A stretch of DNA of 64,000 nt from assembly GCA_963781885.1 (NCBI GenBank), contig CAWAHW010000007.1:128001-192000 (forward strand). Reading direction: 5' to 3'. Shown piece after piece: positions 26,372-30,272 of this stretch; the first letter of the stretch is position 1, and the number at the start of each line of letters is the position of its first letter. The DNA comes from an uncultured Spirochaetota bacterium (GTDB lineage: Bacteria; Spirochaetota; Spirochaetia; SZUA-6; Fen-1364). Below the pieces are notes generated by a model. That model was not told where the DNA came from. It searched no databases and worked only from the letters and a program-made list of their open reading frames with translations. A program made the translations under genes and the position numbers.

Positions 26372-27135
26372 CGCGACCGGCGCGGCGGAGGGCGCTGCTC
26401 TCCGCCGTCGCCTTCCTGTGCGCCCTCTCCGCCGGCGCCGATGACGCCCGGCAGGGCTTCGGAGACCGCTACGCGGATGCCGTGCACTACGTGGAGTCAC
26501 GCGCCGACGTATGGTGCAGCCGTCTGGGCGGCATGGGCGCCGACGCGCGCGTGCTCGTGCCGGCCGTCTTTCCCGAGATCCTCAAGTACACGTCCTTCCG
26601 CGACGACATCGAGACGCTCGGCCTCGCCGTGCTCTACGTGTCGGGGGGGACGGCGCGGGGCAACTTCTCCATCGGCCGCTTCCAGATGAAGCCGTCGTTC
26701 GTGGAGGCCCTGGAGGCACAGGTCGCACGCCGTCCCGATCTTCCCGCGACGCTCCGCGCCATCACGGGCTTTCCGGCCGGCGCGACGGAGAAGGACAGGC
26801 GCACGATCCGCATCGAGCGCATTCGCAGCGAACAGTGGCAGCTCACGTACCTGGGCGCCTTCTATGCCGTGGTGGCTTCCCGCTTCGACCTGGGCGGTCT
26901 TTCCGTCGAGGATCAGGTCAGGTTCGTGGCCGCGGCCTACAACCGCGGGTTCTGGTATTCCGCGGAGGAGATCCGGCGCGCCGAGGGCTTTCGCATCTTC
27001 CCGCATGGCTCCCGGGGCAGCCCCGGGCCCTACCGGTACACCGACATCGCCGTGGACTTCTTCAAGAGCACCTGGGACGCGATATATGCCGCGCGGGCGG
27101 GCGTCTCCGGCGGCGCCGCGCGCGCACGGCCATAG
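26368..27135 (+). CDS. Secreted lysozyme/lytic-transglycosylase-like protein
   Basis: Signal peptide; FPE, SIGRFQMK and AAYNRG resemble SLT motifs I-III. Confidence 0.55.
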   Translation: MTRPARRRALLSAVAFLCALSAGADDARQGFGDRYADAVHYVESRADVWCSRLGGMGADARVLVPAVFPEILKYTSFRDDIETLGLAVLYVSGGTARGNFSIGRFQMKPSFVEALEAQVARRPDLPATLRAITGFPAGATEKDRRTIRIERIRSEQWQLTYLGAFYAVVASRFDLGGLSVEDQVRFVAAAYNRGFWYSAEEIRRAEGFRIFPHGSRGSPGPYRYTDIAVDFFKSTWDAIYAARAGVSGGAARARP

Positions 27136-27224
27136 CACCCGCGCGCACGCCTCAGCAGTTCTGATATGATGTGCCCCCGTCAAGCTCTAAAAGCCTCCTT
27201 TTTTCTTTAGAACTCCTTCTGAAC

Positions 27225-27430
27225 ATCGAGGCCAACCCGAAGAGATGGAGAAGGGCATAACCGACGATCGACCAGTCTGATATGCGTGGATTGGTTACCG
27301 CAGGCCAATGTGATCGTCAGGAGCTTGCCTCCGTCTCATTACCAGGATCAGACCATAGTCTGCCTGCAGAACCGCTCGAGGATTCTCCGTTCGCCACGAA
27401 CCTTCCCCATCCGTCCCGGTTGCCTCGATT
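27225..27430 (-). ncRNA. Predicted bridge RNA (seekRNA) in the IS110 3' non-coding end
   Basis: Nested stems with two large internal loops; loop segments match the insertion site (27368-27376, 27334-27340) and the circle junction (27275-27284). Confidence 0.8.
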
Positions 27431-27445
27431 GCATACGCAGCCTCC

Positions 27446-28540
27446 TCAAGCCACCCGATCAACCATCGCGCCCCACAGGAACCCCGAGAGCTCTCGCGCC
27501 ACCGCCGTCACCACGGTCTGAGAAGCTTTGCCGCGAAAAAGCAGACGCAGAAATTTCTTGTTTAGCCGCCTGCACGCACGGTTGGCATAGCTGACCAAGG
27601 ATGGAGAAAGACCCTCGCGTCGTTTCATCAACCGAGTGCTACTGGGATGGTAGCTGCGGTATTGCCAGGCGGCCTCCACCAGAAGTTTGCGCAGGTGGGA
27701 ATTACCCGCCTTTGTGATTCCTCCCAAGCGCCTCTTGTTTCCGCTGGATCGCTCGGAGGGCACCAACCCCAAAAACGCCATGAATTGATCCGCACCTGCA
27801 AAGCGCCGAAAGTCCCCGATCTCCGAAACAAGCGACAAGGCGATCAGCGTCTCCACGCCCTTGAACGCCTTCAGCTTGGCTACAGGTTCGGCATAGCTTT
27901 TACCTGCCGCGATCTCTTCGATGCCCGCCTTGATCCGCCGACACTTCTCCTCCAGCTCGTCGACTTGGCAGCGGTACTCGGTGAGAGTCAACTGCTCCAG
28001 CGGATCCTCCAACTCAAGAGCCTGCAACCATGCTCGATGCGGCTGCGTCCATGTGGCTCCTTGTTCATAACGTATCCGCCTCCGCAGAAGAAAACCCAGC
28101 ACGCGCTGCTTGGCCTTGCGCAGATCGGACTTCATGTCCTCCAGCATTCGTAGATAGTCGCGAACCGCTTCGTCTTCCCGCGTGGGTACATGAACGGCAC
28201 TCACATCCCCGCTCCGAAGTGCGCGAGCAAGCATCACAGCGTCCCTTCTATCGGTCTTTATGCGATCTCCCGGACGATGTGGAATCTGAGACGGAGCCAG
28301 CACCGCACACGGCACACCCAGTTCCGTCAATTGTCGATACAGGGAATACCCTAGACATCCCGCCTCGTAGCATGTCACCAGGTCCCCCGCGGACTGGAGC
28401 TTCTTGAAATAGGCCTGGATTACGCTCTTTTCATTGCGAATCACCGTCTCGGCCCTCGGCTTCTGATCGCGCCCGCTCAGGATCGCTATGGCGATCTTTT
28501 CTTTGTCGACGTCCATGCCAACGTAATGTACAATACCCAT
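27446..28540 (-). CDS. IS110 DEDD recombinase/transposase
   Basis: VGMDV, YEAG, KTDRRDA (DEDD RuvC-like); EIGDFRRF, GLVPSERSSG (catalytic Ser region), GITKAGN, AVARELS. Confidence 0.96.
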   Translation of the reverse strand: MGIVHYVGMDVDKEKIAIAILSGRDQKPRAETVIRNEKSVIQAYFKKLQSAGDLVTCYEAGCLGYSLYRQLTELGVPCAVLAPSQIPHRPGDRIKTDRRDAVMLARALRSGDVSAVHVPTREDEAVRDYLRMLEDMKSDLRKAKQRVLGFLLRRRIRYEQGATWTQPHRAWLQALELEDPLEQLTLTEYRCQVDELEEKCRRIKAGIEEIAAGKSYAEPVAKLKAFKGVETLIALSLVSEIGDFRRFAGADQFMAFLGLVPSERSSGNKRRLGGITKAGNSHLRKLLVEAAWQYRSYHPSSTRLMKRREGLSPSLVSYANRACRRLNKKFLRLLFRGKASQTVVTAVARELSGFLWGAMVDRVA

Positions 28541-28646
28541 GACTGCCCCCTTGTGCGTTGTTTGTGGCGTGCCGCATCGAGACGCCAATCTCATGATACG
28601 GCCGATCCACGTTGTAGCAACCACCTGGGGGCACTTCATATTGTCT

Positions 28647-28758
28647 CATTTTGGACCATCCTGAGCTTTGGAAAAGGTATGCACACTTTGAAAACGGCCC
28701 TTTCATCATGGGACAAAATGAGAACTGCATCATTCAGTCACCATGCTGAGAATTGCTG
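28647..28758. repeat. Right part of a ~120-bp inverted-repeat (MITE-like) element interrupted by the IS110; left part at 27153-27162
   Basis: Rejoined empty site GCAGTTCTCATTTTG is the exact reverse complement of CAAAATGAGAACTGC (28714-28728); a third related copy TGAGAATTGCTG at 28747-28758. Confidence 0.75.
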
Positions 28759-28811
28759 GGTCCCGCCTGACTCGGCTTGACCGTGGGCGCGAGGATTGGT
28801 AGCGTCCTTCC

Positions 28812-30272
28812 ATGCGTCGTCTGACCCTATTCAGCCTTGGCGTGCTCCTGCTCGCGAGCCTTGCGGCATGCTCCTACAACTACCGCATCGACATTCAGCC
28901 GCCGGATGCGCGCGTGAGCGCGAACGGCGCGGCCGTCGAAACCGGCAAAAACGTGTCGCTCCACGGCCGCTCGCTCGCCGTCACCGCGCTTCACGACGGG
29001 TATACCGACTTCAGCGGCTCCTATCGCCATCCCTTCTGGTTCGGGGAGAGGAAGATCTCCATCCAGATGGAGAGACGGAGCTACGCCGTCCAGGTTTCCG
29101 TGCTCGGTCCCCCGGTCCCCTATACGCTGGACGCGACGCTTTCGGGAACGACCCCGTTCTCCGGGAGTCTTGCCTACGGGGAGCACCACCTCGTGGTGAC
29201 GGAGCCCGATAAGACGCAGAAGACGATCGATTTCGCCGTGACCGGCCCCGGCCCCTACGTTTTCCGCCCCCAGAGCGCGCCGATCCCCCTCCAGCCCGTC
29301 GGTGTTTTCGACTGCGGCCTCCAGCCCAAGCAGATCCTCTTTTCCCCCGACGACAAGGAGCTTTTCATCCCGCTCCTGAACGGGAAGGGCTTCCAGATCC
29401 TGAACCTTTCCACGCGCACCATGCAGACGGTGGAGGTGGAGAAGTTCGGCAAGGACGTCGGCTTCGTGGAGGACATCATCATCCCCCGCGCGCCGAATGC
29501 GGCGGACAAGGACTATCGGCTGCTCGTGTCGCAGATGACCACCGCGCGGGTGCACGAGTACAAGCTGAAGCCTGACGGCAGCGTGGAATATGTCCGTTCC
29601 TTCAAGACGGGCGGGAATTGGTCCAAGGTCATCGCCTGGCTGCCGCAGCAGGACCTCCTGGCGGTGTCCAACTGGCTCAGCAACGACGTGACCCTCCTGG
29701 ACTACACGACCGCGAATGTCGTGCGAAAGCTCGGCGGTCTGGATGTGCCGCGCGGCATGGCCTTTACGCCGGACGGCAAGTCGCTGGCCGTGGCGTCCTT
29801 CAATGGCGGCTTCATCACCGAGTTCGACACGCAGACCTGGACGCGGACAAGGACGATCCAGCGTCCTGCCGGCGCCGCGCCGCGGCACATCGTCATCACC
29901 CAGGACGGCAAGTACTACTACGTGAGCGACATGGCGCGCGACGAGGTCCTGAAGATCGACCAGGCGACGTTCACCATCGTCCACGCCTACCCGACCCACT
30001 CGAATACCAACAGCATCGATCTGTCATCCGATGGACGGCTGCTCGCTATTTCCTGCCGCGGTCCGAACAATCCCGGCGGCTACGAGCTGAAAAGCCCCTC
30101 GGGAGGCTGGGTCATGATCTACGATACCCGCAACGACACCCTCCTGGCGACCATTGAAGGCGGGCTCCAGCCCACGGGGCTCGACATCAGCAACGATGAC
30201 AAGCTGCTTGCCTTCACCAATTTCCAGGACCCGACCGTGGAGATCTATTCGCTGGAAGGATTGCTGAAGTAG
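28812..30272 (+). CDS. Lipoprotein with PEGA-like domains and YncE/YVTN-type beta-propeller
   Basis: Lipobox LAAC; repeats QPKQILFSPD, PRGMAFTPDG, PRHIVITQDG, QPTGLDIS. Confidence 0.85.
   Translation: MRRLTLFSLGVLLLASLAACSYNYRIDIQPPDARVSANGAAVETGKNVSLHGRSLAVTALHDGYTDFSGSYRHPFWFGERKISIQMERRSYAVQVSVLGPPVPYTLDATLSGTTPFSGSLAYGEHHLVVTEPDKTQKTIDFAVTGPGPYVFRPQSAPIPLQPVGVFDCGLQPKQILFSPDDKELFIPLLNGKGFQILNLSTRTMQTVEVEKFGKDVGFVEDIIIPRAPNAADKDYRLLVSQMTTARVHEYKLKPDGSVEYVRSFKTGGNWSKVIAWLPQQDLLAVSNWLSNDVTLLDYTTANVVRKLGGLDVPRGMAFTPDGKSLAVASFNGGFITEFDTQTWTRTRTIQRPAGAAPRHIVITQDGKYYYVSDMARDEVLKIDQATFTIVHAYPTHSNTNSIDLSSDGRLLAISCRGPNNPGGYELKSPSGGWVMIYDTRNDTLLATIEGGLQPTGLDISNDDKLLAFTNFQDPTVEIYSLEGLLK

What the first reader, a model, noticed from the sequence alone, without database searches (positions are those of the whole stretch)
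27225..27430. IS110 bridge-RNA-like structure whose guides can be read against both target and donor
Seen: on the minus strand after the transposase stop, nested stems (ATCGAGG/CCTCGAT, GATGGGGAAGG/CCTTCTCCATC) enclose two internal loops. Loop 1 holds AGCGGUUCU (27376-27368), matching the left flank + core AGCAGTTCT at 8/9 with a G-T wobble, and AAUGAGA (27340-27334), the complement of core + right flank TCTCATT. Loop 2 (stem GACGATC/GATCGTC) holds CAUAUCAGAC (27284-27275), complementary to GTCTGATATG. That 10-mer is only formed once the two IS ends are joined in a circle. The left-donor guide (ACAUUGG vs ATATTGT) is only partial. Established: this is the target-loop/donor-loop layout of IS110 bridge RNAs (IS621; IS1111 seekRNA). 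Inference: an intact RNA-guided recombinase with a CT core and readable native specificity, a candidate ortholog for programmable recombination.
Basis: partly seen in the sequence, partly recalled or inferred. Interest (0 to 1): 0.85.

Follow-up and report, generated by a model that had tools for sequence, protein, structure and literature searches.

The report
RNA-guided insertion sequence targeting a small repeat
This is an intact, recently active jumping gene of the known IS110/IS1111 kind that carries its own guide RNA, and the guide reads the end of a small repeated element; it is a good example of a known system, not a new one.

Summary

The element is a 1,484-bp IS110-family insertion sequence of the IS1111 type, at window 28644-27161. 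It has 15-nt subterminal inverted repeats, a 364-aa DEDD transposase and a 285-nt 3' non-coding region. That region folds into a two-loop RNA: core 27414-27243, extended stem 27429-27225.

In 19 distinct homologous RNAs, 90.2% of pair cells are paired and 21 of 42 pairs show compensatory changes.

The 5' strand of loop 1 pairs with the AG core plus 7 nt of the right flank. Across 24 distinct guides the score on an element's own flank averages 6.67 of 9, against 4.29 on other elements' flanks (0 of 50,000 permutations as high). The 3' strand of loop 1 matches the left flank plus core. Loop 2 matches the IS ends and covaries with them in three divergent relatives.

The genome holds nine insertions. 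All sit at the same position in the terminal inverted repeat of a ~123-bp MITE-like repeat, and eight have intact transposase genes.

Verdict: a new member of the known seekRNA/bridge-RNA kind. There is no RNA evidence. The "10-mer formed only in the circle" claim is over-read.

The parts
28647..28759 (-). Left ~113 nt of a MITE-like repeat (the target element), up to the core
   Evidence: This stretch recurs without the IS in the own genome and in G005 and G019. The copies differ much more from each other (73-92% identity) than the IS copies do.
28645..28646 (-). Left copy of the AG core (CT on the plus strand)
   Evidence: AG is the only base pair repeated at both junctions in all homologues.
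27163..28644 (-). IS body (1,482 nt; 1,484 with one core copy)
   Evidence: Boundaries come from 8 aligned copies and from unoccupied sites.
28627..28641 (-). Left subterminal inverted repeat (15 nt), 3 nt inside the end
   Evidence: Complementary to 27178-27164 at 14 of 15 positions.
27446..28540 (-). Transposase gene, 364 aa, DEDD RuvC-like N-domain plus Transposase_20 C-domain with a GLxPxxxxSG motif
   Evidence: The gene is intact in all 8 copies that hold it, with 0-1 aa differences.
27225..27429 (-).
27243..27414 (-). Conserved core of the RNA (covariance model R1, 171.6 bits)
27368..27376 (-). Loop 1, 5' strand: guide complementary to the top strand, AG core + 7 nt of the right flank (9 bp, one G-T wobble)
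27343..27366 (-). Distal two-tier hairpin closing loop 1
27334..27340 (-). Loop 1, 3' strand: same sense as the left flank + core, so it pairs with the bottom strand (6 contiguous nt plus one ambiguous A)
27320..27388 (-). Base stem of the target stem-loop (27388-27378 pairs with 27331-27320); nearly invariant in sequence
27262..27319 (-). Donor stem-loop: stem 27319-27312 with 27269-27262, inner hairpin 27302-27285
27303..27311 (-). Loop 2, 5' strand: weak left-end guide (4 bp to the left end, plus a possible 2 bp to the core)
   Evidence: Covaries with the left end in L073 and L016 and next to the core in L159.
27277..27284 (-). Loop 2, 3' strand: 8 nt identical to the right end + core
   Evidence: Covaries with the right end in L073 and L159.
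27164..27178 (-). Right subterminal inverted repeat
27178..27183 (-). Outward-facing -35-like hexamer TTGACG, 17 nt from the right end
   Evidence: TTGAC lies within 24 nt of the end in 15 of 16 distinct elements with a right end, and also in L073. Its role as half of a junction promoter is inferred.
27161..27162 (-). Right copy of the AG core
27153..27160 (-). Last 8 nt of the MITE-like repeat (tip of its terminal inverted repeat)

Best explanation
Window 28644-27161 (minus strand) is an active IS1111-type member of the IS110 family.

Its 3' non-coding region most likely encodes a ~170-205-nt guide RNA (a long seekRNA, also called a bridge RNA). The RNA is probably co-transcribed with the transposase gene.

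[quoted passage not shown] The 3' strand pairs with the bottom strand (about 4 nt to the left + core). [quoted passage not shown]

The DEDD/serine transposase bound to this RNA would then recombine the circularised IS with the target at the AG/CT core. No duplication results beyond the core.

The native target is the tip of the terminal inverted repeat of a ~123-bp MITE-like repeat.

Shown here: the anatomy, the conservation of structure, the covariation of guides with flanks and ends, the unoccupied sites, and multiple identical copies. Inferred: transcription, binding of the RNA by the protein, the circular intermediate and its junction promoter.
For: 1. Protein. Pfam PF02371 (78.8 bits) and PF01548 (50.2 bits). 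NCBIfam 'IS110 family RNA-guided transposase', 237 bits against a cut-off of 140. Weak but specific similarity to the solved IS621 and ISCro4 transposases (E = 1.1e-7 and 9.6e-7).

2. Element. 15-nt subterminal repeats matching at 14 of 15 positions. A 104-nt 5' and a 285-nt 3' non-coding region.

3. Activity. Nine insertions in the genome. Eight carry the transposase gene intact with 0-1 aa differences. Eight hold an RNA region with the same model score, 171.6 bits.

4. Target. All insertions lie at the same position of diverged copies of a repeat. Solo copies in this genome and in two same-genus genomes read straight through the site.

5. Structure. On 19 distinct RNAs, 90.2% of cells are paired against 37.6-46.1% with the 3' partners slid. 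21 of 42 pairs have changes on both sides, and 0 of 500 shuffles reach the covariation score. All 12 pairs of the outer stem covary.

6. Target guides.
- 14 independent elements: 5' guide on own flank 7.29 of 9 against 4.75 on others' flanks, 0 of 50,000 permutations as high.
- 3' guide: 5.08 of 7 against 4.01, 0 of 50,000.
- 24 distinct guides including new lineages: 6.67 against 4.29, 0 of 50,000.
- L030 and L115 differ by one guide base (G to C), and their flanks differ by the complementary base.

7. Donor guides. Where the right end differs from the family norm (L073, L159), the loop-2 3' strand carries the same changes. Where the left end differs (L073, L016), the loop-2 5' strand changes in the complementary way.

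8. Order of guides. The top-strand guide lies 5' of the bottom-strand guide, as reported for IS1111-type seekRNAs (PMC11187229, section 9).
Against: - The match is not universal. The 5' guide scores only 5 of 9 on its own flank in L027 (the same locus in three assemblies), L114, L162 and L163. It scores 4-6 of 9 by Watson-Crick pairs in the Leptospira-like group, where G-U pairs are needed to reach 6-8.
- The permutation tests ignore relatedness of the elements and so overstate significance.
- Alignments A2 and A3 were fitted to the model's structure. The upper distal helix is only 62.8% paired in A2.
- The left-end guide gives only 4 bp, plus 2 bp across a bulge, in this copy.
- Each repeat also holds an inverted internal site that matches the 13 guide-read bases at 12 of 13 in this genome, and it is never used. 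The read-out guides therefore do not fully explain site choice.
- No Rfam family matches the RNA region.
Confidence: 0.88

Rival explanations
1. The RNA guides target choice only. The IS ends are recognised by the protein through the subterminal inverted repeats. The second stem-loop would then be a protein-binding or processing scaffold, and its likeness to the ends has another cause.
For: For IS1111-type elements a short 70-100-nt seekRNA holding only the target matches was sufficient for ISEc11 movement, and the role of the long form was left open (PMC11187229, section 14). The left-end match here is only 4-6 bp. The right-end match is invariant in most homologues, so it is uninformative there.
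Against: In the three lineages where an end differs from the norm, loop 2 differs in step. The 3' strand follows the right end in L073 and L159. The 5' strand follows the left end in L073 and L016. Donor loops were also predicted for IS1111 elements by others (PMC11208160, passage).
Confidence: 0.08
2. The 3' region is an ordinary structured 3' UTR or terminator, and its matches to the flanks are chance or reflect repeated DNA.
For: There is no RNA evidence for a separate small RNA. Each single match is short: 70 and 308 of 20,000 shuffles reach them separately.
Against: Only 1 of 20,000 shuffles has both matches. The guides covary with flanks over 24 distinct guides. The loops, not only the stems, are positionally conserved. 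There is no T-run directly after the outer stem.
Confidence: 0.02
3. The internal copies of the target and end sequences act as DNA, for example as transposase binding sites or pairing partners in single-stranded DNA, and not through an RNA.
For: Sequence matches alone cannot tell RNA from DNA.
Against: The stems keep G-U pairs that would be A-C mismatches on the other strand. For example, U-G occurs in 18 of 19 rows at columns 143/171 and G-U in 6 rows at columns 3/214. That points to a folded transcript of the transposase strand. Homologous systems were shown to use RNA (PMC11187229 abstract).
Confidence: 0.02

Closest known systems
IS1111-family elements with seekRNA (ISEc11, ISKpn4, ISPa11, ISPst6; Siddiquee et al. 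2024, PMC11187229)
   Same: The DEDD transposase with a GLxPxxxxSG motif, the subterminal inverted repeats and the long non-coding region 3' of the gene. [quoted passage not shown] The long RNA form is 145-170 nt, and the core here is 172 nt. (Sections 6, 9 and 14 read.)
   Different: The transposase is 364 aa, against the 330-350 aa quoted for the family. The extension beyond the left repeat is 3 nt (5 with the core). The target is different, the tip of a MITE-like repeat. The host is an uncultured bacterium. Nothing was tested at the bench.
IS621 bridge RNA (IS110 group; Durrant et al. 2024, PMC11208160)
   Same: Two stem-loops in the same order, target loop then donor loop. Each has an 8-9-nt guide on its 5' side and a 4-7-nt guide on its 3' side, all including a CT core (passages). 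Read on the window's plus strand, the guides fit the LTG/RTG/LDG/RDG definitions.
   Different: The RNA lies 3' of the gene, not 5'. Relative to the direction of the gene, the strands read by the two sides of each loop are swapped. The element has long subterminal repeats, and an outer stem encloses both stem-loops. The protein is only distantly related (E = 1.1e-7).
[quoted passage not shown]
   Same: An IS1111-type element whose site lies in the terminal inverted repeat of another mobile element.
   Different: I know this only from the title in a reference list. The host element here is a ~123-bp non-autonomous repeat, not a Tn3-family transposon.
ISPpu9/ISPpu10 of Pseudomonas putida, IS110-family elements inserted into REP sequences
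   Same: Multiple copies, each inside a short repeated palindromic element, with a small RNA gene downstream of the transposase gene. (Only the start of the abstract of PMC12288879 was seen, in the listings.)
   Different: A different host and a different repeat. That paper was not read beyond the listing.
IS110-family element on Leptospira interrogans plasmids (annotated only as 'IS110 family transposase')
   Same: 46.5% aa identity over 97% of the protein. Its 3' region matches model R1 at 83.5 bits. It has the same right-end and loop-2 motif.
   Different: Its 5' guide pairs over only 5-7 positions. I recall that the Leptospira element is named IS1533, but no call confirmed this.

Membership tests
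IS110 family, IS1111 group (insertion sequence) | DEDD RuvC-like N-terminal domain | tested here: met
   PF01548, 50.2 bits against a cut-off of 29. The N-terminal acidic motifs align with the IS621 transposase.
IS110 family, IS1111 group (insertion sequence) | C-terminal Transposase_20 domain with a GL-P----S(T)G motif | tested here: met
   PF02371, 78.8 bits. The translated protein contains GLVPSERSSG. The motif definition is from PMC11187229, section 6.
IS110 family, IS1111 group (insertion sequence) | Subterminal inverted repeats of 7-17 bp | tested here: met
   15 nt matching at 14 of 15 positions, set 3 nt in from each end. The length range is from PMC11208160.
IS110 family, IS1111 group (insertion sequence) | The longer non-coding region lies downstream of the transposase gene | tested here: met
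   285 nt downstream against 104 nt upstream.
IS110 family, IS1111 group (insertion sequence) | Site- and orientation-specific insertion without a target duplication beyond the core | tested here: met
   Nine of nine insertions are at one position and in one orientation in the repeat. Unoccupied sites are contiguous.
IS110 family, IS1111 group (insertion sequence) | Circular intermediate with a promoter formed at the joined ends | not testable with these tools
   A conserved outward -35-like TTGAC lies at the right end. The -10 would lie in the left end; in this copy the best hexamer is weak. Laid contigs showed no joints.
seekRNA / bridge RNA | Conserved structured RNA with two internal loops | tested here: met
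seekRNA / bridge RNA | The two strands of loop 1 pair with opposite strands of the target and overlap at the core | tested here: met
seekRNA / bridge RNA | The strands of loop 2 pair with the two ends of the element | tested here: met
   Right end: 8 nt, covarying in L073 and L159. Left end: 4-6 nt, covarying in L073 and L016. The left-end match is weak in this copy.
seekRNA / bridge RNA | The RNA is made and bound by the transposase, and is needed for movement | not testable with these tools
   No sequencing run on record as RNA holds the stretch.
Rfam families (release 15) | A match to any curated RNA family | tested here: not met
   Between 26500 and 29500 there is only a chance-level hit outside the RNA, at E = 0.67. 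I did not check whether Rfam holds any bridge-RNA family at all.

The most novel reading that the evidence does not exclude
This IS lives on one particular end of a MITE. Each copy of the repeat offers up to three near-identical 13-mers: the right tip, an inverted internal copy matching at 12 of 13 in this genome, and the left tip matching at 10-12 of 13. Nine of nine insertions still use only the right tip, and nine of the thirteen repeat copies in the genome are already occupied. This would mean that site choice depends on something beyond the 13 bases read by the two loop-1 guides. Candidates are the distal-most guide base, bases outside the guides, or the DNA context of a transposon tip. 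It would also mean that an RNA-guided IS can saturate and disable a MITE family.
Probability: 0.3. Interest if true: 0.5.

Novelty: new member of a known kind. Interest (0 to 1): 0.35.

Why it matters
RNA-guided IS110/IS1111 recombinases are being developed as programmable tools for inserting DNA. This element adds a naturally validated example:
- eight intact copies;
- one RNA sequence;
- a known native target with unoccupied sites still present;
- a set of about 24 natural guide variants whose flanks show which positions are read.

It also gives in-silico support, from three divergent lineages, that the second loop of the long IS1111-type RNA reads the element's own ends. The seekRNA paper left the role of the long form open (PMC11187229, section 14).

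None of this changes the known picture. It is a well-characterised instance that could serve as an orthologue for testing.

Tried and rejected
- Rfam at a permissive threshold found nothing in the RNA.
- Sequencing runs: no listed holder is on record as RNA. The contigs of four DNA runs, laid on 26800-29000, gave no joints, so they show neither a circle junction nor an unoccupied allele.
- The metagenome pattern scan listed 80 loci. Only 8 were family members (L047, L052, L071, L073, L100, L106, L114, L115), and L071 and L106 are the same locus as L027. The rest were chance matches to the 18-nt pattern.
- MAFFT misaligned the distal hairpin and the outer stem by one column between subgroups. 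I therefore realigned with a covariance model, which leans towards the structure I gave it.
- Handshake guide: I asked whether the bases after the core in the loop-1 3' strand read the first bases of the IS. They fit in WIN, L027-L029, L100 and L016 but not in the L030 group, L033, L035, L047, L114, L073 or L015. I dropped the idea.
- Junction promoter: the -35 is conserved, but the -10 of this copy is poor. The joined sequence is not in any source I could scan, so this stays an inference.
- Two of my scripts had errors that I corrected. One search used a right-flank window shifted by two bases (redone). mis-registered the right ends (redone). In one search the right end of L159 is still registered one to two bases off, so its score of 8 of 9 refers to the flank just after the core.
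- One search printed an IS length of 1,483 from coordinates one base short. The correct span, 28644-27161, is 1,484.
- Supplementary files of the two main papers were not seen. Supplementary Table 5 of PMC11208160 and the ISfinder-based target logos of PMC11187229 may already include relatives of this element.
- I made only two literature searches, so I do not claim that this element is undescribed.

Full report
**What is at the coordinates**

On the minus strand, an ORF at 28540-27446 encodes a 364-aa protein. It carries the two Pfam domains of IS110-family transposases (PF01548 and PF02371). It passes NCBI's model 'IS110 family RNA-guided transposase' at 237 bits against a cut-off of 140. 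Its only relatives with solved structures are the IS621 and ISCro4 transposases, and these are distant (E = 1.1e-7 and 9.6e-7).

The 251 nt after the stop codon fold to -94.7 kcal/mol, z = -2.66.

**Borders of the element**

The genome of the window holds nine copies. Seven are complete. One is cut by withheld bases but keeps the whole gene. One has an internal deletion.

Aligning their junctions with thirteen more distant relatives fixes the ends. The body runs from 28644 to 27163. A dinucleotide AG (CT on the plus strand) stands at both junctions, at 28646-28645 and 27162-27161. Fifteen-nt inverted repeats lie 3 nt inside each end, at 28641-27627 on the left and 27178-27164 on the right; they match at 14 of 15 positions. 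The left repeat is 28641-28627.

The non-coding region is 104 nt before the gene and 285 nt after it. These are the features by which the literature separates the IS1111 group from the IS110 group (PMC11187229, section 6; PMC11208160, passage).

**The target**

The sequence next to the IS is not unique DNA. About 113 nt on the left and 8 nt on the right together form a ~123-bp repeat.
- Its terminal inverted repeats are about 12 nt long, and it is flanked by direct repeats of its own, about 9-12 bp.
- The genome has 13 copies: nine with the IS and four without.
- Two genomes of the same genus have at least eight solo copies each and no IS.
- The repeat copies are 73-92% alike, while the transposase genes differ by at most one residue. 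The insertions are therefore independent and recent.
- In solo copies the left flank, one AG and the right flank are contiguous, as expected for unoccupied sites.

The site lies in the tip of the right terminal repeat. Each repeat also holds an inverted internal copy of the 13 guide-read bases, matching at 12 of 13 in this genome. The left tip holds a poorer one. Neither is used.

**The RNA**

I collected homologous 3' regions from four sources: a protein-guided scan of genomes, same-genus genomes, a pattern scan of metagenomes and a model-guided scan of 151 genomes of the phylum (9 genomes with a match).

RNAalifold on 17 sequences recovered the base stem of the first stem-loop, the stem of the second and its inner hairpin. 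Folding each sequence on its own showed an outer stem of about 12 bp and a two-tier distal hairpin in nearly all. These stems are built from quite different sequences in different lineages.

After realignment to a covariance model:
- 90.2% of 753 pair cells are standard pairs, against 37.6-46.1% when the partners are slid by 1-3 columns;
- 21 of 42 pairs have changes on both sides;
- none of 500 shuffles reaches the covariation score.

Frequent G-U pairs indicate that the folded strand is the transposase strand. The alignment was fitted to my structure, which favours it. The upper distal helix is only 62.8% paired.

**Loop 1 reads the target**

In the window the 5' strand (27376-27368) is complementary to the AG core plus 7 nt of the right flank, with one G-T wobble. 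The 3' strand (27340-27335) is identical to the last 4 nt of the left flank plus the core, so it pairs with the other DNA strand. Both matches together occur in 1 of 20,000 shuffles of the RNA.

| Guide | Set | Score on own flank | Score on others' flanks | Permutations as high |
|---|---|---|---|---|
| 5' guide | 14 independent elements | 7.29 of 9 | 4.75 | 0 of 50,000 |
| 5' guide | 24 distinct guides | 6.67 of 9 | 4.29 | 0 of 50,000 |
| 3' guide | 12 elements | 5.08 of 7 | 4.01 | 0 of 50,000 |

The clearest single cases:
- L028, L029, L030 and L115 score 9 of 9.
- L030 and L115 differ by one complementary change in guide and flank.
- In a Leptospira-like genus, four guide variants in different species go with four flank variants.

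The misses:
- L027, L114, L162 and L163 score 5 of 9.
- L033, L016 and L073 score 6 of 9.
- The Leptospira-like group scores 4-6 of 9 without G-U pairs.

Kinship among the elements inflates the permutation result.

The order of the guides, with the top-strand guide 5', is the one reported for IS1111-type seekRNAs. It is the reverse of the IS110 type when read along the gene.

**Loop 2 reads the ends**

The 3' strand (27284-27277) is identical to the last 6 nt of the IS plus the core. Most relatives have the same end and the same loop sequence, which proves nothing.
- In L073 three positions of the right end differ, and the loop carries the same three changes.
- In the Azospirillum element L159 both differ again, in step.
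- On the 5' strand, most elements can pair only 4 nt with the left end.
- In L073 a T-to-G change in the left end is matched by an A-to-C change in the loop.
- In L016 a different left end is matched over 6 nt.

Its reality is supported.

Nine of the ten bases are present at the integrated junction, and the last two are not conserved.

**How it most likely works**

By analogy with ISEc11 and IS621, the element excises as a circle. The joined ends bring a conserved -35 (27183-27178) next to a -10 in the left end, and this drives the gene and the RNA. The RNA is bound and perhaps trimmed by the transposase. The complex pairs with both strands of the target and of the joined ends and exchanges strands at the core. 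All these steps are inferred (PMC11187229, passages and section 14; PMC11208160, passages). No RNA data were available.

**Comparison and novelty**

The element meets every defining feature of the IS1111 group and of seekRNA/bridge RNA that sequence alone can test. It is a new member of a known kind.
- Its closest annotated relative in the plasmid collection is a Leptospira interrogans 'IS110 family transposase', at 46.5% identity.
- The 3' region of that element also matches the RNA model.
- The RNA family is found in environmental genomes of several phyla by record title.
- By the same titles, and by identical match statistics between same-genus genomes and named records, the window's genome appears to be an uncultured member of the Spirochaetota. 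This is an inference.

What is mildly new:
- the target, the tip of a MITE-like repeat;
- the near-saturation of that repeat family;
- the unused near-identical sites;
- the natural covariation that supports a donor-reading second loop in an IS1111-type RNA.

Noticed in passing
window 28759-28647 and 27160-27153; solo copies e.g. L010:1494-1616, and in L013, L014, L017, L018, L023, L024: A ~123-bp MITE-like repeat with terminal inverted repeats of about 12 nt and an internal inverted copy of its own tip. It is flanked by direct repeats of about 9-12 bp. There are 13 copies in this genome, and at least 8 listed in each of two same-genus genomes that lack the IS. I did not look for its autonomous parent.
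   Followed up: partly
L009 (G000:C2:775865-776873): One IS copy has lost about 600 nt, from 3 nt inside its left end to the middle of the transposase gene. The junction shares a single base. It looks like an ordinary deletion, not recombination at the AG core. Its RNA region is intact.
   Followed up: partly
L164-L168, L170-L171, L173, L174, L177, L178, L182, L183 (genus g34): A Leptospira-like genus carries up to 18 copies per genome of a related element. Its 5' guide differs between species (four variants), and the flanks differ in step. The flanks look like a palindromic repeat.
   Followed up: partly
L027, L071, L106 (one locus in three assemblies): The right flank of this element fits its 5' guide at only 5 of 9 positions, although the left flank fits the 3' guide. 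This may be an off-target insertion or a later change of the flank.
   Followed up: no
L016 and L021 (two copies in G016): The two insertions share only about 7 nt of the right flank and 5 nt of the left flank. This suggests a shorter effective guide in this divergent lineage. Its left end and the 5' strand of loop 2 both differ from the family norm.
   Followed up: partly
L159 (Azospirillum brasilense plasmid, locus 886-2400): A related element sits directly at the end of an IS21-type istB gene. Its annotated transposase ORF overlaps the istB ORF by 38 nt.
   Followed up: no
window 27083-27141, minus strand: A GC-rich stretch (80% G+C) just outside the repeat gives a chance-level Rfam hit to an archaeal sRNA family (E = 0.67). 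It is probably meaningless.
   Followed up: no
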